Shown: positions 1 through 10,113 of the stretch, one piece after another
How positions within the stretch are numbered: position 1 is the stretch's first letter
Layout: each line of letters begins with the position of its first letter
IMG/VR virus record: IMGVR_UViG_2695420523_000025
Coordinates: 1-10,856 of that record
Length of the DNA stretch: 10,856 nt
Direction: 5' to 3' (one strand)
Origin: a virus
Lineage: Duplodnaviria > Heunggongvirae > Uroviricota > Caudoviricetes
Notes under the pieces: generated by a model
The model's database searches: none
The model's input: the letters and a program-made list of their open reading frames with translations, nothing else
Told to the model about the DNA's origin: nothing
Position numbers and translations under genes: made by a program

Positions 1-861
1 CCTGTCCTGATTGATGTGAACGGCGTTCCGCTTCGTGAGAGTCTCAGCTACAACGGGGGCGGCGCAGGATTTGGCGGGCAAATGGCGGAGTGGTTGCCAC
101 CGGCGCAGAGTGTCGATGCGGCCCTGCTGCCCGCGTTGCGTCTGGGGAATGCCCGGGCAGATGATCTGGTGCGCAATAACGGAATAGCGGCTAATGCGGT
201 GGCCCTGCATAAGGATCACATTGTCGGGCATATGTTTCTGATCAGCTACCGTCTGAACTGGCGCTGGCTGGGGATGCGGGAGACCGCAGCAAAAAGCTTT
301 GTCGATGAGGTGGAGGCGGCCTGGTCGGAATACGCAGAAGGGATGTCTGGCGAGATCGACGTGGAAGGAAAACGCACATTTACGGAGTTTATCCGTGAAG
401 GTGTTGGCGTTCATGCGTTTAACGGCGAAATCTTTGTGCAGCCGGTCTGGGATACGGAAACCACGCAGTTATTCCGTACGCGTTTTAAAGCCGTGAGTCC
501 GAAACGGGTGGACACGCCAGGACACGGTATGGGGAACCGTTTTCTGCGGGCCGGGGTGGAGGTCGATCGATATGGCCGTGCCGTTGCGTACCATATCTGT
601 GAGGATGATTTTCCGTTCTCCGGGAGTGGACGATGGGAACGGATCCCGCGTGAACTTCCCACCGGGCGTCCGGCCATGCTGCATATTTTCGAGCCGGTGG
701 AGGACGGGCAGACCCGTGGGGCCAATCAGTTTTACAGCGTCATGGAACGGCTGAAGATGCTCGATTCCCTGCAGGCAACACAGCTTCAGTCGGCCATAGT
801 GAAGGCGATTTATGTCTATCATCTCACCGTAGTTGCCCGCATCGTTCGCCAACTCCACTGA
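1..861 (+). CDS. Phage portal protein, lambda gpB family; 5' end lies off-window and the 3' part appears replaced near nt 813, so likely a disrupted gene
   Basis: The frame is open from nt 1 (GTG at 16 is only the first start the ORF finder met). The translation carries blocks I recognise from lambda-family portals: YNGGGAGFGGQ, SVDAALLP, GNARADDLVRNNG, HKDHIVG, FEPVEDGQTRGANQFYSVME, TQLQSAIVKA. Recognisable similarity ends about 15 codons before the stop. Lambda-family portals are about 500-530 aa, whereas this ORF would be about 300 aa. Confidence 0.8.
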   Translation, partial: PVLIDVNGVPLRESLSYNGGGAGFGGQMAEWLPPAQSVDAALLPALRLGNARADDLVRNNGIAANAVALHKDHIVGHMFLISYRLNWRWLGMRETAAKSFVDEVEAAWSEYAEGMSGEIDVEGKRTFTEFIREGVGVHAFNGEIFVQPVWDTETTQLFRTRFKAVSPKRVDTPGHGMGNRFLRAGVEVDRYGRAVAYHICEDDFPFSGSGRWERIPRELPTGRPAMLHIFEPVEDGQTRGANQFYSVMERLKMLDSLQATQLQSAIVKAIYVYHLTVVARIVRQLH

Positions 862-937
862 AACCCTTGCTGCGTCTGGAATGTCGTTTTCCATGCTTTT
901 GATGACCGTTCATCACCCTTCCAGTTTTTCGCGGTTT

Positions 938-991
938 TGTGTATTGCAATGTGTATTGCAAATTGGCGATCGGGATGGGTGTGTATTGCAA
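938..991 (+). repeat. Three direct copies of TGTGTATTGCAA (938-949, 950-961, 980-991) just upstream of int; candidate integrase arm-type or autoregulatory sites within the att arm
   Basis: Three exact 12-bp copies read directly, two in tandem and a third 18 bp later, ending 19 bp before the int start codon. Confidence 0.55.
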
Positions 992-1009
992 ATCTCTTGA
1001 GGGCTTTTA

Positions 1010-2251
1010 ATGGCTATTGAAAACAAACTCAGTGACAAACTGTTAAAGAGTCTTGTCGGAAAACGGCAGGACAAACAAAAAACAATAGCGGATGGGCGCG
1101 GGTTGTCTGTGCGTGTAAGCATGGTTGGGGGGATCAGCTTTGTTTTTTACTATCGTCTTGGTGGCAGGGAATCCCCTCCGGTATGGCTTACACTTGGTCG
1201 CTATCCTGACATGTCTCTTGCAACGGCTAGGCGCATGCGTGATCAGTGCCGTGAATGGCTGGCTGAAAATCTGGACCCCCGCAGGCAAATAAAACTTGCT
1301 GCCGAAAAAACTATGCAACCAGTGACCGTAAGGGATGCGCTGTTTTACTGGTACGACAATCACGCCACAACAGCCAGAAAAGAGCATGAATATTTAATAA
1401 AACGATTTGAAAAGCATATCTTCCCCTATATCGGTGATATGGCTATAGAACAGTGCAAATTACACACATGGCTTACCGTCTTTGACAGGATCAAAAAAAA
1501 TGCGCCTGTTATGTCTGGTGCAATTTTTCTTGATATCAAACAGGCGTTGCGTTTTTGTCGCGTCAGGCAATACATCGCGTGCGATCCCTTTGGAGATATT
1601 AACGTAAGTTATGTCGGGCGCTCATCCGGTATAAGGGATCGCGTTCTTAATATCAATGAAACCGCTGATGTATGGTCTTATGCTTACGGTAATAATTTGC
1701 TAACTCTGTCATCAATATATAACCGAAGAATAATGGTTATCTGCCTGGTGTTTGGTTGCCGACAGCAGGAGGCGAGGCTATCCACCTGGGACGAATGGGA
1801 TTTAAAAAACTGGGTATGGACAGTCCCAAAAGAGCACAGCAAAAACAAGGAGGCTATAGTAAGGCCTGTTCCTGACGGAATAAAACAATGGATCGTTAAT
1901 CTTTACGCAGAAACAAAAAATCGCGGTTATGTTGTCGGTTGTGCTTTGCAAAGGGCGACAATAACAGGGGCTGCAAACAGAATATGCAGGCGTCTTGGTC
2001 ATGATACTAATGGCTTGTGGTGCATACATGATTTCAGGCGCACATTTTCCACTACGCTTAATGATATGGGGGCGGATCCTTATATTGTCGAACTTCTTTT
2101 AGGTCATAAAGTGAAAGGGGTTGCTGGTGTTTACAATAAAAGCAGGCATATAAAGAAAAAACTTGAGGTGCTTAATATGTGGGTTAATTACCTTAATACG
2201 ATAGCAGGATTTAACAACAACGTTATCGAGCTTAATAAAGAGGTGGTGTGA
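1010..2251 (+). CDS. int: Tyrosine site-specific integrase, P4-like family
   Basis: 413-aa ORF with RBS GAGGG about 7 nt upstream. N-terminal arm-binding-type region (GRGLSVRVSMVGGISFVFYYRLGG...LTLGRYPDMSLATAR). C-terminal catalytic region with HDFRRTF, LLGH and the tyrosine in GVYNKS. AT-richer than the portal fragment. Confidence 0.93.
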   Translation: MAIENKLSDKLLKSLVGKRQDKQKTIADGRGLSVRVSMVGGISFVFYYRLGGRESPPVWLTLGRYPDMSLATARRMRDQCREWLAENLDPRRQIKLAAEKTMQPVTVRDALFYWYDNHATTARKEHEYLIKRFEKHIFPYIGDMAIEQCKLHTWLTVFDRIKKNAPVMSGAIFLDIKQALRFCRVRQYIACDPFGDINVSYVGRSSGIRDRVLNINETADVWSYAYGNNLLTLSSIYNRRIMVICLVFGCRQQEARLSTWDEWDLKNWVWTVPKEHSKNKEAIVRPVPDGIKQWIVNLYAETKNRGYVVGCALQRATITGAANRICRRLGHDTNGLWCIHDFRRTFSTTLNDMGADPYIVELLLGHKVKGVAGVYNKSRHIKKKLEVLNMWVNYLNTIAGFNNNVIELNKEVV

Positions 2252-2510: not shown

Positions 2511-2523
2511 CCAGTAAATAATG

Positions 2524-2546
2524 CCCCTCATCACGAGGGGTTTTTT
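2524..2546 (+). terminator. Intrinsic terminator closing the int-alpA unit
   Basis: Stem CCCCTC (2524-2529), loop ATCAC, stem GAGGGG (2535-2540), then TTTTTT (2541-2546). Confidence 0.65.
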
Positions 2547-2566: not shown

Positions 2567-3145
2567 ATGAATAAAAATATTGCCGTGACGGGCAAGGGGT
2601 ACGCTCGTCCAGTGAAAAAATTCTGCGATATTCGTGATCTCGTCGTTCTGCGCTTTGATAGTGTGAACGTTCGTGTGGTGTATCTGAACGGCGATCCGTG
2701 GTTTGTTGCAAAAGATGTTTGTGCTGCGCTGGAACTAACCAATTCGCGTACGGCGTTGCAGATGCTTGATGATGATGAAAAGGGAGTAAATTTAACTTAC
2801 ACCCCAGGAGGAAATCAGAATATGAGAATTATCTCTGAGTCAGGTTTCTACAAACTAATAGCCCGCAGCCGCAAAGCAACGACGCCTGGCACATTTGCTC
2901 ATCGTTTCAGTAACTGGGTATTCAGAAATGTGATACCAGGTATCAGAAAAACGGGGACTTATGGTATCCCGTGGGGTGCATTACAGGATTTTTCCCGCCG
3001 TAAAGAGCAATATCAAATAAGTGCCAGCGAGAAGGGGAGGGAGCTACAGGCATGTAAGCGCAAAAAGCGTGAGCTGGAGGAAGAAGAAAAAACGCTGATA
3101 CGTGAATATCAGCCTGAGTTTTACTTTGGTAACCGCATTCAGTGA
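2567..3145 (+). CDS. Bro-N domain protein (antirepressor-like) with a charged coiled-coil C-terminus
   Basis: 192-aa ORF. The core VVYLNGDPWFVAKDVCAALELTNSRTALQMLDDDEKG is typical of the Bro-N fold. C-terminal KRKKRELEEEEKTLIREYQ is predicted helical. It starts only 20 nt after the terminator T-tract, so its promoter is unclear. Confidence 0.7.
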   Translation: MNKNIAVTGKGYARPVKKFCDIRDLVVLRFDSVNVRVVYLNGDPWFVAKDVCAALELTNSRTALQMLDDDEKGVNLTYTPGGNQNMRIISESGFYKLIARSRKATTPGTFAHRFSNWVFRNVIPGIRKTGTYGIPWGALQDFSRRKEQYQISASEKGRELQACKRKKRELEEEEKTLIREYQPEFYFGNRIQ

Positions 3146-3154
3146 CAAAACAAA

Positions 3155-3175
3155 GGCGACCGCAAAAGGGTCGCC
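3155..3175. terminator. GC hairpin between the convergent Bro-N and minus-strand genes; possible terminator, better placed for minus-strand transcripts
   Basis: GGCGACC (3155-3161), loop of 7 nt, GGTCGCC (3169-3175). No T-run follows on the + strand; the minus strand reads TTTGTTTTG after the stem. Confidence 0.35.
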
Positions 3176-3241
3176 AGTGGGAACAAGGGAAAACAAAAGC
3201 ATCACCAACAATGCCACATTTGCGGCTGGTGGGCAATGTGA

Positions 3242-3421
3242 TCAGTCAGATTTGGTTCGTTCCAAGGTTTGCAACGAGAGCTTTTTCCTGTGCTCTTTAA
3301 GGAATTTCTCAAGAGCAAACGAACAAGGTGCGAATCTTTCTGATTCATGTTCATGCGCTATATTTTTGCGTCGTCTCTTACGAGTTGGTGATGGTGTTTT
3401 GGTTGATTCTGTGTCGCTCAT
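3242..3421 (-). CDS. Small basic hypothetical protein (59 aa), absent from the ORF track
   Basis: Manually translated from the minus strand: MSDTESTKTPSPTRKRRRKNIAHEHESERFAPCSFALEKFLKEHRKKLSLQTLERTKSD, with stop TGA at 3244-3242. AGGA lies 7 nt upstream of the ATG. It sits 57 nt downstream of the RHH-like gene on the same strand. Confidence 0.3.
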   Translation of the reverse strand: MSDTESTKTPSPTRKRRRKNIAHEHESERFAPCSFALEKFLKEHRKKLSLQTLERTKSD

Positions 3422-3478
3422 GGTGCTGTCCTGTAAAGCAATGCGCCTGCGTTCCTCAAACTATGGCGCTGATAGTGG

Positions 3479-3784
3479 CTATTCCTGCTCTTTGACCTTG
3501 CGTCGCTGGAGTTCTTCACGCGCGACGGTGACGAGTTGCCCGATCTCCTCGGCGGCTTTGACTCCGATTTTTTCCACCTGCGCTAGGGCATCGAGCGAAG
3601 AAACCAGGAGGTTTTCTCCGCTTCCTTCTGCCTGGCGGCGGGCGATTTCACCGCGCATGGCGGTTACTATGAATCCGGCGTTGCTTTCACCGTCCAGTTT
3701 TACGGATTCCATGCCTTCAATAACATCATGCGGGATCCGAGCTGTCAGTGATTGTGATTTTGCGTTTTTTGAACCTGTAGCCAT
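3479..3784 (-). CDS. Ribbon-helix-helix-like DNA-binding protein; candidate repressor of the divergent rightward operon
   Basis: The N-terminus KSQSLTARIPHDVIEGMESVKLDGESNAGFIVTAMRGEIARR has the RHH beta-strand plus two helices pattern, followed by a helical tail. I prefer the ATG at 3784 (RBS GAGAGGA 6 nt upstream) over the ORF-track TTG at 3799. It is divergent from a region with palindromic operator-like sites. Confidence 0.6.
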   Translation of the reverse strand: MATGSKNAKSQSLTARIPHDVIEGMESVKLDGESNAGFIVTAMRGEIARRQAEGSGENLLVSSLDALAQVEKIGVKAAEEIGQLVTVAREELQRRKVKEQE

Positions 3785-3805
3785 CTGTAATCCTCTCAAT
3801 GAAAG

Positions 3806-3900
3806 TGTAAGACAATATACACATAAAAAGTCTTACATAAAAGCATTGACATGTAAGCCACCTATAAATAAAGTTACTTACACCTTGTTAATACAAGGTG
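3806..3900. promoter_or_regulatory. Divergent promoter/operator region with TGTAAG/CTTACA half-sites, a sigma70-like rightward promoter and a 7-bp-stem palindrome
   Basis: Half-sites TGTAAG at 3806-3811 and 3852-3857, inverted partners CTTACA at 3832-3837 and 3877-3882. TTGACA at 3846-3851 with TAAAGT 17 bp downstream at 3869-3874 (rightward). On the minus strand TATATT is a candidate -10 for the RHH gene. Palindrome CACCTTG-N6-CAAGGTG at 3881-3900. Confidence 0.45.
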
Positions 3901-3980
3901 CAGAAACGACGAAACCCCGCACTGTAGGAGCAGTAACGGGGCTTCTAACCACCAACGATAGCAAGATTATCGAGGCAGCT

Positions 3981-4184
3981 ATGAGAAATTATACCATACA
4001 CCCGCAAGGGCGGGACTCGTACAACCTGAATAAATACATCTGGCGTTTTATCGCCCTGAGCACCGCACAACCGCGCGTGATTCACATCGTGGCCACCAGC
4101 GAACAGGAAGCACGCCAGCAATCCCCGGCTGGCTGCGTGATGGTATTCGCCGCCCGTATTCGTCAGGGGGTGTGCCATGCCTGA
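3981..4184 (+). CDS. Small hypothetical protein (67 aa), first gene of the rightward operon
   Basis: ATG at 3981 with GAGG 5 nt upstream, in frame with the stop at 4182-4184, which overlaps the start of the next gene by 8 nt. It is the only plausible part of the long low-complexity ORF 3102..4184. Confidence 0.45.
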   Translation: MRNYTIHPQGRDSYNLNKYIWRFIALSTAQPRVIHIVATSEQEARQQSPAGCVMVFAARIRQGVCHA

Positions 4185-4497
4185 TATGTCAAATTACCAG
4201 TACCTGATTAATCCGCATTTTAACTGTGAGCATGATATTGCTAAAAAGGTTTATTCCGCTGCTGATGGGGCTACTGACAATATATCAATGGCTGTTGCGT
4301 CAATTGGTAGCCTGATGTGGCATGCGTCAGAAAATGAGGACTATGACGAAAAGGCCATGCGCATTGATATGGGTAATATCGGTTTGTTACTGGCAATGCT
4401 TGGGCAGTTTGATATTTCGTTACGGTGCACCATTGAAAATGCCACAGATGCATTAAATGCCATAAAGAAAGCGAATACTGATTCAAATCGGGGATAA
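4177..4497 (+). CDS. Hypothetical protein (106 aa)
   Basis: ATG at 4177 with RBS AGGGGG 6 nt upstream. Overlaps the preceding stop. No recognisable motif. Confidence 0.6.
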   Translation: MPDMSNYQYLINPHFNCEHDIAKKVYSAADGATDNISMAVASIGSLMWHASENEDYDEKAMRIDMGNIGLLLAMLGQFDISLRCTIENATDALNAIKKANTDSNRG

Positions 4498-4503
4498 ATA
4501 ATC

Positions 4504-4803
4504 ATGAGAACATATTTATCTGGCTTGACTGCCAGCGGTTATGCACACCCCAAAATTATCCCCGGCGCTATTTATCTGGATAAGAACGGTAACAGAGTAA
4601 CGGTAAAAGAGCTGATGTTTGACCGTGTGTATTTTATTCGTGATGGCTATTCATTTCATAGTTCGCTGAACGTGGAGATCTTTATTAGCAGATTCAGGCG
4701 GGAAATCCCGCTTTCCAGAAAAAACCATGTGTCACGTGTGAATGTGGATAAAAAACTACAGGAACTGAAAAACATGATTGCCGCGTGGAGAGAGCAGAAA
4801 TGA
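4504..4803 (+). CDS. Hypothetical protein (99 aa)
   Basis: ATG at 4504, 7 nt after the previous stop. Its stop TGA (4801-4803) overlaps the primase ATG (4800-4802). No recognisable motif. Confidence 0.6.
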   Translation: MRTYLSGLTASGYAHPKIIPGAIYLDKNGNRVTVKELMFDRVYFIRDGYSFHSSLNVEIFISRFRREIPLSRKNHVSRVNVDKKLQELKNMIAAWREQK

Positions 4804-6617
4804 AAAAAGCGCCAAATTTAAAACACCAGCCGCGTGACAAAATGACGGAAGTCATCATTTTTGCGGGTAGTGATGCGTGGGCACATGCGAAGCAGTGGCA
4901 GGAACAGGACGGGCGACTGGCTGGCGATAACGTGCCTCCTGTCTGGCTTGGAGAGCAACAACTTGCCGAACTGGACAACCTGCAAATCGTACCGGACGGA
5001 CGCTATCGCGTGCGTCTCTATCAGGCGGGGTTATTGCGTCCGGGGCTTGTTAATACCATCGGGCAGAAACTGGCAGCGGCAGGTGTCAGGGATGCTGATT
5101 ATTACTCTGAAGGAATGCACAGCCAGAAACGGGAGAACTGGCGCGAATATCTGGAACGTGAACGGGCAGAGCTGGCGGAAAAGAAAAAGGTAGTTGAACT
5201 GCCTGTAAAGAAAAAAGAGCGGGTAAAAGACGATAACGCTTCATCACTGGCGCTTAACCAGATGGGAGCAAGTCAACGCGGCGAAGTTCTCCTGGCACAT
5301 TATGGCGGTGAACTGGCGATTCATGCTGACTCTGACACTGTTCACCATTACAACGGCGTTGTATGGGAGCCAGTACAGGATAAAGAATTACAGCGAGCTA
5401 TGGCACAGATTTTCATTGATGCGGAGATCAGCTATTCGCAGAACGCCATTAAATCGGCGGTCGATACCATGAAGTTAAGTTTGCCTGTTATGGGGAATAC
5501 AGCCCGTAACCTGATTGGATTCAGTAACGGGGTATTTGATACCAGAACAGGTAATTTTCGGGAGCATAACAAAAACGACTGGTTGTTAATTGCCAGTGAA
5601 TTACCTTTCAGCCCACCAGCAGAGGGGGAAACGCTGGCAACACATGCGCCGAATTTCTGGAAGTGGTTACGCCGTTCGGTGGCTGAGAATGACCGCAAGG
5701 CGGATCGCGTACTGGCTGCATTATTCATGGTGCTGGCGAACCGGTACGACTGGCAGTTATTCATTGAGGTAACAGGTCCAGGGGGAAGTGGTAAAAGCGT
5801 GATGGCGGAGATTTGCACCATGCTGGCGGGTAAGGCCAACACAGTATCGGCAAGCATGAAGGCGCTGGAAGATGCAAGGGAACGCGCGTTAGTGGTTGGC
5901 TTTTCGCTGATTATCATGCCGGATATGACCCGCTACGCTGGTGATGGGGCAGGAATTAAGGCCATTACAGGCGGTGACAAGGTGGCAATTGACCCGAAAC
6001 ACAAAGCCCCCTACTCAACGCGTATTCCGGCAGTAGTGCTGGCGGTTAACAATAACGCCATGTCATTCAGTGACCGCAGCGGGGGGATCTCACGTCGTCG
6101 GGTGATATTCAATTTTTCGGAAGTTGTACCGGAGAACGAACGCGATCCAATGCTGGCGGAAAAAATAGAAGGTGAGCTGGCGGTAGTGATTCGCCATCTG
6201 CTTACACGGTTTGCTGACCAGGACGAAGCCAGACGCCTGTTATATGAGCAGCAGAAATCTGAAGAAGCACTGGCGATAAAGCGAGAGGGGGATTCGCTGG
6301 TGGACTTCTGCGGCTATCTCATGGCGTCGGTAATGTGTGATGGCCTGTTAGTGGGTAATGCTGAAATTGTGCCATTCAGCCCACGCAGGTATCTCTATCA
6401 TGCCTATCTGGCTTATATGAGGGCACATGGGTTTGGTAAACCTGTAACACTGACGCGCTTCGGTAAAGATATGCCGGGGGCAATGGCGGAATATGGCAGG
6501 GAGTATATGAAACGGAAAACGAAGCACGGTTTGCGTTCAAACGTGACACTGACGGAGGAATCAGAAGACTGGATGCCATCATGTGTATCGGTCACTAATG
6601 ACGATAGCAAAAATTAA
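4800..6617 (+). CDS. Replication primase/helicase, P4 alpha-like (N-terminal primase-type region plus SF3/D5-type NTPase)
   Basis: Long ORF with Walker A GPGGSGKS and a downstream hydrophobic stretch ending in D (SLIIMPDM, Walker B-like). Start taken at ATG 4800 (RBS GGAGAGAG), but GTG 4785 and ATG 4842 are alternatives. An iteron array follows immediately. Confidence 0.9.
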   Translation: MKKAPNLKHQPRDKMTEVIIFAGSDAWAHAKQWQEQDGRLAGDNVPPVWLGEQQLAELDNLQIVPDGRYRVRLYQAGLLRPGLVNTIGQKLAAAGVRDADYYSEGMHSQKRENWREYLERERAELAEKKKVVELPVKKKERVKDDNASSLALNQMGASQRGEVLLAHYGGELAIHADSDTVHHYNGVVWEPVQDKELQRAMAQIFIDAEISYSQNAIKSAVDTMKLSLPVMGNTARNLIGFSNGVFDTRTGNFREHNKNDWLLIASELPFSPPAEGETLATHAPNFWKWLRRSVAENDRKADRVLAALFMVLANRYDWQLFIEVTGPGGSGKSVMAEICTMLAGKANTVSASMKALEDARERALVVGFSLIIMPDMTRYAGDGAGIKAITGGDKVAIDPKHKAPYSTRIPAVVLAVNNNAMSFSDRSGGISRRRVIFNFSEVVPENERDPMLAEKIEGELAVVIRHLLTRFADQDEARRLLYEQQKSEEALAIKREGDSLVDFCGYLMASVMCDGLLVGNAEIVPFSPRRYLYHAYLAYMRAHGFGKPVTLTRFGKDMPGAMAEYGREYMKRKTKHGLRSNVTLTEESEDWMPSCVSVTNDDSKN

Positions 6618-6630
6618 ACTTATGGAATAA

Positions 6631-6853
6631 CTGTTCACCACTGTTCACCCTGTCATAAATATCTTTTGTATCAGTATGTTATAGGGTGAACAGTTATTTA
6701 TGAACTGTTCACCAAACTATTCACTGTTCACCTTTTTGATTGTTTATTGAGCTTCAAGGGTGAACAGTGGTGAACAGTTGGTGAATAGTTTTTGTGAAAC
6801 TGTTCACCCCTTAACATTATGAATAAAAAGTTAAAATATCAAAAGGTGAACAG
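6631..6853. repeat. Iteron array, putative origin of replication of the element
   Basis: Exact CTGTTCACC at 6631, 6641, 6705, 6724 and 6800. Exact inverse GGTGAACAG at 6685, 6759, 6769 and 6845. Degenerate GGTGAATAG at 6780. Tandem copies have 10-11 bp periodicity. Two inverted pairs have 11-bp AT-rich spacers (6685-6713 and 6780-6808). The surroundings are AT-rich and directly downstream of the primase gene. Confidence 0.75.
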
Positions 6854-6904
6854 GTGAAGGGTTAAAACGCAAAAATTTTAATTTACTGCTGTGAGATAAA
6901 GCCT

Positions 6905-7993: not shown

Positions 7994-8203
7994 GTGAGTT
8001 GTATTAATGACCTGAACACGGGCGATATCAGGGGTGGTTCCGTTCATCTGGATGCGCAGACCGTTATGCGCCTTAAGCAGTACAGGATCGACCATATAAA
8101 TCATCATCCTGACAAACCATTACCAGGTGTGGCGCAGATTGTCAGGCATGCCGTAAACGCCTGGCTTAATCAGAGTGGTTTTGCATCGGAGAGTGAGCAA
8201 TGA
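7994..8203 (+). CDS. Small hypothetical protein (69 aa), translationally coupled to the protease-capsid gene
   Basis: GTG start with strong RBS AAGAGGAAG 7 nt upstream. Its stop TGA (8201-8203) overlaps the ATG at 8200-8202. A weak RHH-like pattern (MRLKQYRIDH...VAQIVRHAVNAWL) is not conclusive. Confidence 0.5.
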   Translation: MSCINDLNTGDIRGGSVHLDAQTVMRLKQYRIDHINHHPDKPLPGVAQIVRHAVNAWLNQSGFASESEQ

Positions 8204-10113
8204 ATCACTGGTACACCATTAAGGCGGCGGATGTTCGCGGAGCGGCGGATATATCTATCTATGAGGAGATTGGCGGCTTCGGTGTTACTGCAAAGCAGTT
8301 CGCGGAAGACCTGAAAGCCCTTGGCGATGTTTCACATATCAATCTGAGGATCCATTCACCAGGTGGTGATGTGTTTGAAGGCATCGCCATCTATAACCTG
8401 CTACGGAATCATCCGGCAGACATTACGGTTTATATCGATGGTGTTGCGGCTTCAATGGCTTCGGTTGTCGCAATGGCTGGCGATCGTGTTGTTATGCCGG
8501 AGAACGCCATGATGATGATCCATAAACCGTGGGGTATCTCTGGCGGAAATGCTGGCGATATGCGTGATTATGCTGATTTGCTGGATAAGGTGGAAACCGT
8601 GTTAATCCCTGCTTATGCCAGAAAAACGGGCAAATCAGCACAGGAAATTACCGCCATGCTGGAGGATGAAACCTGGATGGATGGGAAAGAATGCCTTAAG
8701 CACGGTTTTGCTGATGAATTGTTGCCATCCGTCAGAGCAATGGCGCGAATTGAATCGAAACGCACAGGAGATTTTTTACATATGCCGGAAACCATTAAAG
8801 GAATGATTACACCGCCACAGGGAGCGGCAAATATTGCTGGTAATGAACAGAAGCGCATCAATGGAATAAGTGAAGTGTTTAGCTTGTTCGGCAGTCGTTA
8901 CGACGGGATCAAAATGGCGTGTCTGGAAGATGCATCATGTACACCGGAAATGGCCCGTGAAAAGCTGTTGAACGAGCTGGGGCGCGAGTCCACGCCATCC
9001 AATAAAAATACCCCGCCTCATATCTATGCCGGAAACGGAAACATAACAGGTGATGCAATTCGTCAGGGGCTTTATTCCCGTCTTGGGTATGAACGCCCTG
9101 AACGAGGCAACCCTTACGCGATGATGAGCCTTTTTGAAATGGCCCAGGCATCACTGGTTGATCGTGGTATCACTGTGAGCGGTTTTATTAATCGCTCGCA
9201 GGTTGTTAATGCGGCTTTTACACACAGCAGCAGCGATTTTTCTCATATTCTGGCTGGTGGCGCTGAAAAATCAGTACTGAAAGGCTGGCAGGACAGCGGC
9301 GAAACGTTCCAGAAATGGACGCGTACCGGTTCGCTTTCAAACTTTCATGAAGCAAAGCGCGTTGGTCTGAATGGTTTTTCAAAGCTGGATAAAGTACCGG
9401 AAGGCGCGGAATATAAATACATCACCACTAGCGATAAAGGTGTACCTATTGCGCTGGCCACGTACGGGAATATTTTTTCCGTTACCCGTCAGGCCATTAT
9501 CAACGATGACCTGACCCAGTTAACTACAATCCCCATGGCGATGGGACGCGCAGCTGCCAGAACAGTTGGCAATCTGGTTTATCTCCTGTTAACCAGCAAC
9601 GGCAAGTTTACGGATGGTAAAGCGTTATTCCATGCCGATCATAAAAATCTTATTGCGAAGGATATGGACATGGAGGGGCTTAACGAAGCCCGTAAGCTGA
9701 TGCGCCTCCAGGAAGACGCTAACGGCGATTCGCTGAATATTACCCCCGCATTTGTCCTGGTCCCCGCCGCGCTGGAGTCTGCCGCACATCGCGCCATTCT
9801 GTCATCGTCATCACTCTTTCCGGTTGATGGCGTGGGCACTATCAATCAGAACCCCGGCATCATTAACGTGGTGAAAGATATGGCGGAGGTAATCGTTGAG
9901 CCACGTCTTGATAAAGCCAATAACAAGGAGTGGTATGTGGCAGCGGCGAAGGGTATGGACACGATAGAGGTCGCTTATCTTGATGGTATTGATACGCCAT
10001 ATCTTGAGGAGCAGGAGGGCTTTACTGTTGATGGCGTCGCCTGGAAGGTGCGCATAGATGCAGGTGTCGCGGCCCTCGACTATCGCGGATTACTGAAATC
10101 GAGTGGAGCATGA
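8200..10113 (+). CDS. Fusion protein: N-terminal ClpP-like (S14-type) prohead serine protease joined to a C-terminal putative major capsid domain
   Basis: N-terminal 200 aa carry ClpP signatures HSPGGDVFEGIAIYNLL, catalytic-serine context GVAASMASVVAMAGD and histidine context MMMIHKPWG. The remaining roughly 430 aa have the size and position expected of a scaffold plus capsid region. The capsid assignment is from context and general resemblance, not a verified alignment. Confidence 0.8.
   Translation: MNHWYTIKAADVRGAADISIYEEIGGFGVTAKQFAEDLKALGDVSHINLRIHSPGGDVFEGIAIYNLLRNHPADITVYIDGVAASMASVVAMAGDRVVMPENAMMMIHKPWGISGGNAGDMRDYADLLDKVETVLIPAYARKTGKSAQEITAMLEDETWMDGKECLKHGFADELLPSVRAMARIESKRTGDFLHMPETIKGMITPPQGAANIAGNEQKRINGISEVFSLFGSRYDGIKMACLEDASCTPEMAREKLLNELGRESTPSNKNTPPHIYAGNGNITGDAIRQGLYSRLGYERPERGNPYAMMSLFEMAQASLVDRGITVSGFINRSQVVNAAFTHSSSDFSHILAGGAEKSVLKGWQDSGETFQKWTRTGSLSNFHEAKRVGLNGFSKLDKVPEGAEYKYITTSDKGVPIALATYGNIFSVTRQAIINDDLTQLTTIPMAMGRAAARTVGNLVYLLLTSNGKFTDGKALFHADHKNLIAKDMDMEGLNEARKLMRLQEDANGDSLNITPAFVLVPAALESAAHRAILSSSSLFPVDGVGTINQNPGIINVVKDMAEVIVEPRLDKANNKEWYVAAAKGMDTIEVAYLDGIDTPYLEEQEGFTVDGVAWKVRIDAGVAALDYRGLLKSSGA

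What the first reader, a model, noticed from the sequence alone, without database searches (positions are those of the whole stretch)
3784..3980. Divergent control region with two palindromic TGTAAG/CTTACA operator candidates
Four half-sites form two inverted pairs, one of which overlaps a near-consensus rightward promoter, while the RHH-like gene is transcribed leftward from the same region. This looks like the on/off switch of the element, with the RHH protein as repressor of the replication operon, analogous by position to Stl/Str regions of Gram-positive PICIs.
Basis: partly seen in the sequence, partly recalled or inferred. Interest (0 to 1): 0.55.

Follow-up and report, generated by a model that had tools for sequence, protein, structure and literature searches.

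The report
Repressor-operator switch of E. coli satellite
The repeated TGTAAG motifs are real and are most likely the binding sites of a small ribbon-helix-helix repressor that silences the replication genes of a phage satellite, a kind of repressor not yet described for these Gram-negative islands, including the laboratory model EcCICFT073.

Summary
TGTAAG occurs at 3806(+), 3832(-), 3852(+) and 3877(-), next to a TTGACA-17-TAAAGT rightward promoter. Each "half-site" is better read as a whole 11-bp box of GTG-N5-CAC type (GTGTAAGACAC-like) at 3805, 3828, 3851 and 3873, spaced 22-23 bp apart.

The leftward gene 3479-3784 belongs to the YlcI/YnfO family and has a ribbon-helix-helix-like N-terminus. 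In 30 related loci from at least 8 genera the boxes keep their positions. Their sequence changes together with the N-terminal arm and beta-strand of this protein, giving about 10 specificity classes. It does not change with the Icd-like protein, AlpA or the small downstream ORF. One blind prediction (SVTAR gives GTGTAAG) held.

Two boxes bracket the -10 of the rightward promoter of the icd-like/primase operon. Two more bracket a putative leftward -10. This fits repression plus autoregulation, which remains inferred.

The context resembles phage P4 rather than Stl. The Icd-like gene corresponds to P4 kil, and a stop-free frame (3102-4184) crosses the operators and the antisense repressor gene, as P4 eta crosses PLE. 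EcCICFT073 carries the same module. No binding or expression experiment exists.

The parts
3479..3784 (-). Candidate repressor gene (101 aa, YlcI/YnfO family). It has an RHH-like N-terminal domain (residues ~9-52) and a C-terminal helical extension (59-100).
   Evidence: NCBIfam YlcI_YnfO_N 4.7e-20 and phrog_6522 1.3e-57. AF2 with an MSA gives pLDDT 81: extended 1-18, helices 19-28, 35-53 and 59-100. Pfam PF07704 matches weakly in 28 of 37 members. The Shine-Dalgarno sequence GAGAGGA lies at 3797-3791.
3242..3421 (-). Small basic ORF (59 aa) downstream of the repressor gene on the same strand. Function unknown.
   Evidence: phrog_21027 5.2e-15. By eye its translation resembles the small ORF in the same position in EcCICFT073. 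No Pfam or PADLOC hit. The ORF in this position differs or is absent in other loci.
3155..3175 (-). Intrinsic terminator of the leftward repressor-orf59 transcript.
   Evidence: GGCGACC-CTTTTGC-GGTCGCC followed by TTTGTTTTGT on the minus strand.
3805..3815 (+). Operator box S1, GTGTAAGACAA. It overlaps the predicted start of the leftward transcript.
   Evidence: The same position carries the class-specific box in relatives.
3814..3819 (-). Putative -10 hexamer (TATATT on the minus strand) of the leftward promoter for the repressor gene. The -35 is weak.
   Evidence: A TAnnnT hexamer (TATATT, TATAAT or TATACT) is conserved at this position between S1 and S2 in nearly all operator classes. It did not pass the consensus scan, so it is inferred.
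3828..3838 (-). Operator box S2, ATGTAAGACTT on the minus strand. It lies in the spacer/-35 region of the putative leftward promoter.
   Evidence: It is the weakest box and is missing in some relatives such as L014.
3846..3874 (+). Rightward promoter of the icd-like/primase operon: -35 TTGACA 3846-3851, 17-nt spacer, -10 TAAAGT 3869-3874.
   Evidence: Matches 10 of 12 positions. The -35 sits at position 62 from the repressor ATG in 26 of 30 loci.
3851..3861 (+). Operator box S3, ATGTAAGCCAC. It starts on the last base of the -35 hexamer and fills the promoter spacer.
   Evidence: It is positionally fixed in 26 of 30 loci and class-specific in sequence.
3873..3883 (-). Operator box S4, GTGTAAGTAAC on the minus strand. 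It overlaps the end of the -10 and the predicted transcription start.
   Evidence: A matching box lies 22-25 bp after S3 in most loci and 35 bp after it in two.
3881..3980 (+). Structured 5' leader of the rightward operon. It has a 5'-terminal hairpin 3881-3900, a central hairpin 3911-3945 followed by the conserved CUAACCA, a hairpin 3952-3975 next to the ribosome-binding site, and GAGG at 3972-3975.
   Evidence: MFE -31.3 kcal/mol, z = -3.55. Six of 12 consensus pairs show compensatory changes. The leader is 84-92% identical in E. coli elements whose upstream operator and repressor differ. It has no Rfam match.
3981..4184 (+). Icd-like gene (67 aa), first gene of the rightward operon and counterpart of P4 kil.
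   Evidence: NCBIfam phage_ICD_like 5.5e-20. The 65-aa C-terminal ORF of P4 eta hits the same model at 1.6e-21.
3102..4184 (+). Stop-free frame of 361 codons in phase with the Icd-like gene. It begins inside the 3' end of the Bro-N gene and crosses antisense orf59, the antisense repressor gene and the operator/promoter region. Candidate counterpart of P4 eta.
   Evidence: The frame is open across the inter-CDS region in 18 of 24 loci, against 2-9 stops in the other plus-strand frames, and 0.6% of shuffles of the window region are stop-free. The P4 eta ORF 8168-8812 spans the C4 and isrK-like RNAs.
4177..6617 (+). Remainder of the operon presumed to be under this control: hypothetical 106 aa, DUF4222 protein and D5-type primase/helicase.

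Best explanation
The region is the immunity/early-control region of a P4-related Gram-negative phage-inducible chromosomal island. Here the island is helper-embedded, inserted in a lambda-type portal gene.

The leftward gene encodes a small YlcI/YnfO-family protein with a ribbon-helix-helix-like N-terminal domain. Dimers of it most likely bind four 11-bp pseudo-palindromic boxes (consensus GTGTAAGACAC, general form GTG-N5-CAC) spaced 22-23 bp apart.

Boxes S3 and S4 fill the spacer and cover the -10/+1 of the strong rightward promoter. That promoter drives the icd-like (kil-like) gene, a DUF4222 gene and the primase. Occupied boxes would exclude RNA polymerase and keep replication and the toxic Icd-like protein off. 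Boxes S1 and S2 bracket the -10 of a weaker leftward promoter, which would give negative autoregulation.

What is shown: the sites, the promoter match, and the co-variation of box sequence with the protein's N-terminal arm and beta-strand. What is inferred: binding, repression and autoregulation.

Derepression is not resolved. The most likely route, by analogy with P4 and with published EcCICFT073 data, is helper-induced AlpA-dependent transcription entering from upstream along the stop-free eta-like frame. That would bypass the repressed promoter and run against repressor synthesis. An anti-repressor, for example the adjacent Bro-N/Ant-like protein or a helper protein, is the alternative.
For: - Sites and promoter.
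- Protein family and fold: NCBIfam YlcI_YnfO_N; AF2 extended N-terminus plus two helices plus a long helix; weak matches to RHH-clan family PF07704 in 28 of 37 relatives; relatives named Arc-like or CopG by UniRef.
- Co-variation: the four positions hold GTGTAAG with SLTAR/SVTAR strands (window, Enterobacter L002, short-form E. coli L014, L027). They hold GTGTGTTTCA with LTTVR/LFTVR (9 loci in Xenorhabdus, Photorhabdus, Serratia and E. coli) and TGTGATTCA with QISIR.
- Further classes: GTGGGCCACAC with ALKAR, the perfect palindrome GTGTTCAACAC with TVAAR, GTGTATTTCAC with MTTVR, GTGTG(T/C)AT with xKNxR, and GTGTAGTC with MISTR.
- Prediction test: the SVTAR protein P0113, 66% identical to the window protein, has GTGTAAGACAG and GTGTAAGCCAC at S1 and S3.
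- Specificity of the link: repressor residues 1-18 are 90% identical in same-operator pairs and 53% in different-operator pairs. Icd-like proteins can be 100% identical with different operators.
- The same AlpA-type HTH protein and the same downstream ORF occur with different operators in L021 and L025.
- Mantel r is 0.46 (p = 5e-5) for residues 1-18, against 0.22 for Icd.
- The module boundary falls at the transcription start, about 3880.
- The module is present in every examined relative and in EcCICFT073.
Against: - There is no experimental binding or expression data.
- One counter-example to a simple beta-strand code exists. The identical QQLNARF strand occurs with GTGCGATTCAC (L017) and with GTGAATACCAC (L024, L025). 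The N-terminal arms and helix A differ in those proteins.
- S2 is a poor match in the window (3 mismatches), and S1 or S2 is absent in some relatives.
- The leftward promoter lacks a recognisable -35 and failed the scan.
- The loci are related, so the co-variation tests are not fully independent.
- In EcCICFT073 AlpA overexpression alone triggers replication (PMC6092414). The repressor therefore cannot be an absolute lock.
Confidence: 0.75

Rival explanations
1. The RHH protein binds these boxes but is only a self-contained autoregulated cassette. It could be an antitoxin-like or accessory module with the small downstream ORF, without a significant role in controlling the replication operon.
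Against: The universally conserved boxes are S3 and S4, which bracket the -10 of the rightward promoter. S1 and S2 at the repressor's own promoter are the dispensable ones. The downstream ORF is variable or absent and matches no toxin or defence family.
Confidence: 0.1
2. The boxes are recognised by a different factor (AlpA, the Bro-N protein, the Icd-like protein, or a host or helper protein), and the RHH link is only genetic hitch-hiking.
For: Co-variation cannot exclude another tightly linked determinant. The PHROG families hit by the Icd-like protein are labelled 'transcriptional repressor'.
Against: Icd-like proteins are identical across five operator classes. The same HTH/AlpA protein and the same downstream ORF accompany different operators. 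The variable DNA block is bounded by the repressor's N-terminal coding region and the transcription start. P4's legacy 'cI' CDS, which covers the kil/eta region, is annotated as a transcriptional repressor and is a possible source of the PHROG label.
Confidence: 0.05
3. The repeats are not protein sites. They would be by-products of chance, of AT-rich promoter composition, or of coding or RNA constraints of the stop-free eta-like frame.
For: The region lies inside a conserved open frame. Any 6-mer reaches 4 copies in 2.4% of local shuffles.
Against: TGTAAG reached 4 copies in 0 of 20,000 shuffles. In each relative a different box is repeated 3-4 times at the same positions, often perfectly (0 mismatches between S3 and S4 in 7 loci). 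Chance or a shared coding constraint cannot produce this.
Confidence: 0.03

Closest known systems
Phage P22 immI region: Mnt and Arc ribbon-helix-helix repressors acting at the divergent Pant/Pmnt promoters (from established knowledge)
   Same: A small RHH repressor is transcribed divergently from the operon it controls. Its operators overlap the core promoter elements of both divergent promoters. Mnt, like the long form here, has an RHH domain plus a C-terminal helical oligomerisation extension.
   Different: No demonstrable sequence homology (hhalign E = 0.13). Here there are four boxes 22-23 bp apart, not two adjacent half-sites 11 bp apart. The controlled operon encodes Icd-like protein and primase, not an antirepressor. 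The whole region lies inside a long open frame.
Phage P4 early control: PLE promoter inside the nested eta/kil genes, with CI (C4-family) RNA immunity
   Same: Both have a P4-type integrase and an AlpA/Vis-type regulator upstream. The Icd-like gene belongs to the same NCBIfam family as P4 kil. A long frame in phase with it starts at the end of the upstream gene and contains the early promoter. A D5-type primase lies downstream.
   Different: P4 has no protein repressor here. It uses CI RNA with seqA/seqC, detected as C4 and isrK in P4 but absent from the window. The window instead has an antisense-nested RHH gene and DNA operators.
SaPI Stl / Gram-positive PICI Rpr master repressors with the divergent stl-str region (PMC6092414)
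   Same: A repressor gene diverges from the excision/replication operon of a phage satellite, and operators lie in the shared control region.
   Different: Unrelated protein. The integrase is not in the repressor's transcription unit but upstream on the other strand. The known induction route in the Gram-negative model is an activator (AlpA), not a helper-encoded anti-repressor.
Plasmid RHH copy-number and partition repressors (CopG of pMV158, omega of pSM19035; from established knowledge)
   Same: Several RHH dimers bind arrays of short repeats of variable orientation that overlap promoters of replication genes.
   Different: Those repeats are contiguous (7-13 bp units), not spaced two helical turns apart. 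No homology was shown, and the mobile-element context differs.

Membership tests
NCBIfam YlcI/YnfO family (NF041551) | Score above the curated cut-off for the 42-residue N-terminal domain model | tested here: met
   71.4 bits against a cut-off of 30, residues 9-50.
Ribbon-helix-helix (MetJ/Arc/CopG) DNA-binding superfamily | N-terminal beta-strand followed by two alpha-helices of RHH lengths | tested here: inconclusive
Ribbon-helix-helix (MetJ/Arc/CopG) DNA-binding superfamily | Significant profile similarity to a curated RHH family | tested here: inconclusive
   PF07704 matches 28 of 37 relatives, but the best E-value is 1e-3 and scores are below the gathering cut-off. hhalign aligns LTARIPHDVIE with Mnt FNFRMPMEVRE at E = 0.13. 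The PDB profile search found no RHH protein.
Ribbon-helix-helix (MetJ/Arc/CopG) DNA-binding superfamily | Specificity carried by the N-terminal arm and beta-strand, with operators built from repeated short boxes | tested here: met
   Residues 1-18 co-vary with the 11-bp box across about 10 classes. There is one exception.
Ribbon-helix-helix (MetJ/Arc/CopG) DNA-binding superfamily | Obligate dimer inserting a two-stranded sheet into the major groove | not testable with these tools
   Needs a multimer/DNA model or an experiment.
SaPI Stl / PICI Rpr master repressor | Repressor gene divergent from the replication operon | tested here: met
   3479-3784(-) faces 3981-6617(+).
SaPI Stl / PICI Rpr master repressor | Integrase lies to the left of the repressor and is transcribed in the same direction (PMC6092414) | tested here: not met
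   The integrase (1010-2251) and alpA (2253-2510) are on the plus strand, opposite to the repressor.
SaPI Stl / PICI Rpr master repressor | Derepression by a helper-phage protein binding the repressor | not testable with these tools
   No data. In EcCICFT073 the helper induces alpA instead (PMC6092414).
P4-type RNA immunity (CI/C4 RNA with seqA/isrK-like target) | Rfam C4 and isrK matches upstream of the kil/icd-like gene | tested here: not met
   No match at E <= 1 over the whole window or E <= 10 over 3840-4200. The positive control P4 gives C4 at 74.9 bits and isrK at 60.8 bits.
P4-type nested eta/kil arrangement | Icd/Kil-family ORF forming the in-frame C-terminus of a long ORF that starts at the end of the upstream gene and contains the early promoter | tested here: met
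   Window 3102-4184 and 18 of 24 relatives. P4 ORF 8168-8812 overlaps the vis stop. Both short ORFs hit NF033153. Translation of the long frame is not shown.
Type II toxin-antitoxin module with an RHH antitoxin | Adjacent conserved toxin gene of a known family | tested here: not met
   The downstream 59-aa ORF has no Pfam, NCBIfam or PADLOC match and is variable or absent in relatives.
Gram-negative PICI / helper-embedded PICI (PMC10111431, PMC6092414) | Ordered zones: integrase plus AlpA, Bro zone, primase/SSB replication zone, late genes | tested here: met
   Integrase, AlpA, Bro-N, primase, SSB and protease-capsid genes occur in that order. The portal fragment ends at Pfam position 242 directly upstream of the integrase, matching the published site B:Phage_portal_2:241.

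The most novel reading that the evidence does not exclude
Gram-negative PICIs of the EcCICFT073 type may carry a previously unrecognised protein immunity cassette. It would consist of an RHH repressor with diversifying operator specificities, at least 10 'immunity types'. The cassette is nested antisense inside a translated, stop-free eta-like frame.

In this reading it replaces the CI-RNA immunity of P4. Induction would work by AlpA-driven, translation-coupled read-through that crosses the repressor gene and its operators. That read-through would both bypass the repressed early promoter and shut down repressor synthesis.
Probability: 0.3. Interest if true: 0.75.

Novelty: new variant of a known kind. 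Interest (0 to 1): 0.6.

Why it matters
[quoted passage not shown] In the held literature YlcI/YnfO appears only as a "prophage-associated protein" (PMC13612085).

The module analysed here is in the model island EcCICFT073. Part of the queried region matches in about 1,400-1,600 of 5,426 complete E. coli genomes, though many of those matches cover only the leader/icd part.

If the RHH protein is the repressor of the early promoter, several things follow:
- It explains how these islands keep a toxic Icd-like gene and their primase silent.
- It predicts mutually orthogonal immunity types among co-resident satellites.
- It links PICI control mechanistically to P4 (PLE inside eta/kil) with a protein in place of the CI RNA.
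- It supplies about 10 natural operator/repressor pairs usable as orthogonal parts.

Tried and rejected
- Rfam scans of the whole window (E <= 1) and of 3840-4200 (E <= 10) found nothing relevant. The idea that the leader is a C4/CI or isrK RNA was therefore dropped. P4 served as a positive control.
- Single-sequence AF2 gave a poor model, pLDDT 54.
- PDB sequence and profile searches found no RHH protein. They did find an HhH-like match of the C-terminal insert to Hef, E = 0.0065.
- hhalign against Mnt was not significant.
- BLASTP of the window Icd-like protein against P4 Kil found nothing, and the P4 'cI' ORF did not match the window's long-ORF translation. Homology rests on the shared NCBIfam model.
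- The long-ORF translation has no family match outside its Icd-like end. It reads like antisense sequence, so a functional Eta-like protein domain is not supported.
- In L012 and other relatives the long open frame showed no evident Bro-N-like sequence on reading its translation; no family scan was run.
- PADLOC found nothing for the four small proteins.
- Searching GTGTAAGACAC with up to 3 mismatches outside the control region gave background numbers. The only 2-mismatch copy lies inside the integrase gene.
- The Forti 1999 P4 paper is not held. P4 details were read from the sequence and from PMC10111431.
- Literature searches found no description of an RHH repressor in PICIs.
Full report
**1. 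What is in the sequence**

The hexamer TGTAAG lies at 3806(+), 3832(-), 3852(+) and 3877(-). These are 4 of the 9 copies in the window, against 3.9 expected for the whole 10.8 kb. The first pair extends to perfect 8-nt arms, TGTAAGAC/GTCTTACA. In 20,000 local dinucleotide shuffles TGTAAG never reached four copies.

A sigma-70-type promoter, TTGACA(3846-3851)-17-TAAAGT(3869-3874), matches 10 of 12 positions. The flanking genes are a leftward 101-aa ORF (3479-3784, Shine-Dalgarno GAGAGGA) and a rightward 67-aa ORF (3981-4184, Shine-Dalgarno GAGG).

**2. The element**

The window encodes, in order:
- a truncated lambda-type portal fragment (16-861, Pfam positions 2-242);
- a P4-type integrase (1010-2251);
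- AlpA (2253-2510);
- a Bro-N/anti-repressor-like protein (2567-3145);
- the control region;
- an Icd-like protein, a hypothetical protein, a DUF4222 protein and a D5-type primase (4785-6617);
- SSB, a ClpP-capsid fusion protein and a DUF1441 protein.

This is the four-zone organisation of Gram-negative PICIs. The insertion point matches the published helper-embedded site B:Phage_portal_2:241 (PMC10111431). The control region is 100% identical in another E. coli island with a different integrase and late module. Part of it matches in 1,431-1,587 of 5,426 complete E. coli genomes.

**3. The leftward protein**

It hits NCBIfam YlcI_YnfO_N at 4.7e-20. AF2 with a 37-sequence alignment (pLDDT 81) gives an extended N-terminus, helices 19-28 and 35-53, and a long helix 59-100. 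That is the ribbon-helix-helix (RHH) pattern plus a C-terminal extension.

Direct fold and profile evidence is weak:
- PF07704 matches 28 of 37 relatives below threshold.
- hhalign places the strand/helix junction onto that of Mnt, but at E = 0.13.
- Foldseek found nothing.
- Some relatives are named Arc-like or CopG by UniRef.

Short 59-aa forms lacking residues ~52-93 are common. The insert in the long form resembles a helix-hairpin-helix motif.

**4. The key result: co-variation**

I collected 30 loci: 11 from other genera through a protein-pattern scan, 13 from E. coli genomes, 5 through exact-protein look-ups, and EcCICFT073.

In nearly all of them the -35 lies 62 nt from the repressor ATG. 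A box starts on its last base, and a second box follows 22-25 bp later. Up to two more boxes lie upstream at the same phasing. The positions are constant, but the box sequence is specific to the locus. It follows the protein's residues 10-16:

| Residues 10-16 motif | Box sequence | Loci |
|---|---|---|
| SLTAR / SVTAR | GTGTAAG(A/C)C | window, Enterobacter L002, short-form L014, L027 |
| LTTVR / LFTVR | GTGTGTTTCA | nine loci in four genera |
| MTTVR | GTGTATTTCAC | L018 |
| QISIR | TGTGATTCA | L012, L019 |
| ALKAR | GTGGGCCACAC | L015, EcCICFT073 |
| TVAAR | GTGTTCAACAC (perfect palindrome) | L021, L022, L023 |
| xKNxR | GTGTG(T/C)AT | L004, L007, L029, L034 |
| MISTR | GTGTAGTC | L032 |

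Read as 11-mers, most boxes fit GTG-N5-CAC. Each is therefore a pseudo-palindrome suited to one symmetric dimer. Box orientation differs between classes: +-+- in some, ++-- in others, and undefined for the palindromic class. In the window they sit at 3805, 3828, 3851 and 3873.

A prediction made before looking held. The SVTAR protein P0113, 66% identical to the window protein, has GTGTAAGACAG and GTGTAAGCCAC at S1 and S3.

**5. Which linked factor?**

Repressor residues 1-18 are 90% identical in same-operator pairs and 53% in different-operator pairs. Icd-like proteins are up to 100% identical between loci of five different operator classes. The same HTH/AlpA protein and the same downstream ORF accompany different operators in L021 and L025. 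The Mantel correlation of the S3 box with residues 1-18 is 0.46 (p = 5e-5), against 0.22 for Icd.

E. coli elements with other operator classes become similar to the window again exactly at about 3880, the predicted transcription start. The repressor N-terminus plus operators therefore behaves as an exchangeable immunity block.

Two caveats apply. The loci are related, so the tests are not fully independent. One identical strand (QQLNARF) occurs with two different boxes, in proteins whose N-terminal arm and helix A differ.

**6. Likely mechanism**

S3 occupies the spacer directly after the -35, and S4 covers the end of the -10 and +1. Both are classic occlusion positions, so repression of the icd-like/primase operon is the natural reading (inferred).

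Between S1 and S2 a TAnnnT hexamer on the minus strand (TATATT in the window at 3819-3814; TATAAT or TATACT elsewhere) is conserved across classes. This suggests a leftward promoter under autoregulation. It has no good -35 and failed the scan, so it is also inferred.

The leftward transcript would end at a clear intrinsic terminator, 3175-3155.

The rightward transcript starts with a structured leader. Its three hairpins fold with z = -3.55, and six consensus pairs have compensatory changes. The leader is conserved independently of the operator class. Its function is unknown, and it is not a C4 or isrK RNA.

**7. Context: P4-like rather than Stl-like**

In P4 the 65-aa ORF at the end of the eta frame hits the same NCBIfam model (phage_ICD_like, 1.6e-21) as the window's Icd-like protein. 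The P4 eta frame (8168-8812) overlaps the vis stop and contains the isrK-like and C4 (CI) RNAs. PMC10111431 places the constitutive promoter inside eta.

In the window a 361-codon stop-free frame (3102-4184) is in phase with the Icd-like gene. It starts inside the end of the Bro-N gene and crosses the terminator hairpin, antisense orf59, the antisense repressor gene and the AT-rich operator region.

Across relatives:
- The inter-CDS region has 0 stops in that frame in 18 of 24 loci, against 2-9 in the other two plus-strand frames.
- Four further loci keep a different long frame that ends at the Icd-like start.
- Two loci lack a long frame.
- Only 0.6% of shuffles of the window region are stop-free.
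- The five extra loci and EcCICFT073 behave the same way.
- The frame usually begins at or near the stop of the upstream alpA or bro gene.

The translated sequence has no family match outside its Icd-like end and looks like antisense sequence. If selection acts, it acts on translation as such, as reported for P4 eta.

This suggests, but does not show, the following. The rightward promoter is the PLE counterpart, kept off here by a protein instead of CI RNA. Induced transcription from upstream could then read through the whole cassette. One complication is an intrinsic terminator on the plus strand just after alpA, at 2523-2541.

**8. Relation to the literature**

Fillol-Salom et al. 2018 (PMC6092414) state that a global repressor in Gram-negative PICIs is unclear. 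They show that AlpA is an activator whose overexpression triggers EcCICFT073 replication.

EcCICFT073 contains the same module: a short ALKAR repressor (C_RS30120), an Icd-like gene (C_RS30125), GTGGGCCACAC boxes at S3 and S4, and the open frame.

No held paper describes an RHH repressor in PICIs. YlcI/YnfO is only listed as a "prophage-associated protein" (PMC13612085).

**9. Verdict**

It cannot yet be called "the" on/off switch.

This is a new variant of a known kind: an RHH repressor-operator circuit serving as a diversifying immunity cassette in P4-related satellites, nested in an eta-like frame. Confidence that the protein binds these boxes and represses the rightward promoter is 0.75.

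Noticed in passing
window 3102-4184 (+): A 361-codon stop-free frame is in phase with the Icd-like gene. It crosses the operator region and runs antisense through the repressor gene and orf59. It is conserved in most relatives and in EcCICFT073 and parallels P4 eta/kil. Its translated sequence has no family match upstream of the Icd-like part.
   Followed up: partly
window 16-1010: A truncated lambda-type portal ORF (Pfam positions 2-242 of 354) lies directly upstream of the integrase gene. The island therefore appears to be a helper-embedded PICI at the published site B:Phage_portal_2:241.
   Followed up: partly
window 938-991: Three direct copies of GTGTATTGCAA lie between the portal fragment and the integrase start. 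They may be arm-type integrase sites or part of the att region.
   Followed up: no
window 6611-6863: A dense array of at least 11 GGTGAACAGT iterons in both orientations lies downstream of the primase gene. This is the likely replication origin of the island.
   Followed up: no
window 3881-3975: The 5' leader has three hairpins with compensatory changes and an invariant CUAACCA after the central hairpin. It is conserved even where the upstream operators and repressor differ. It has no Rfam family and its role is unknown.
   Followed up: partly
window 3479-3640 (repressor residues ~52-93); loci L014, L015, L017, L018, L021-L023, L036: The repressor exists in a 59-aa short form and a 101-aa long form. 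The roughly 42-residue insert of the long form weakly matches the helix-hairpin-helix domain of Hef (PDB 1x2i, E = 0.0065), although AF2 draws it as one long helix.
   Followed up: partly
window 2523-2541 (+): An intrinsic-terminator-like hairpin with a T-run lies immediately after alpA and before the Bro-N gene. It would limit simple read-through from the alpA promoter.
   Followed up: no
window 8200-10113 (+): A single 637-aa ORF combines a ClpP-type prohead protease domain (33-175) with a major capsid domain (335-634).
   Followed up: no
L021 801-1322 (E. coli CUVET19-970): After the leader and the first 18 codons of the Icd-like gene, the frame continues into an ash-family pseudogene. A second, intact Icd-like gene follows, which suggests module shuffling at this point.
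   Followed up: no
L017 versus L024 and L025: Proteins with the identical strand NNKSQQLNARFP are paired with different boxes, GTGCGATTCAC and GTGAATACCAC. Specificity must also depend on residues outside the strand, and the N-terminal arm and helix A differ between these proteins.
   Followed up: partly
window 1183-1193 (-): A single extra near-match to the operator box, GTGTAAGCCAT, lies inside the integrase gene. It is probably chance.
   Followed up: no
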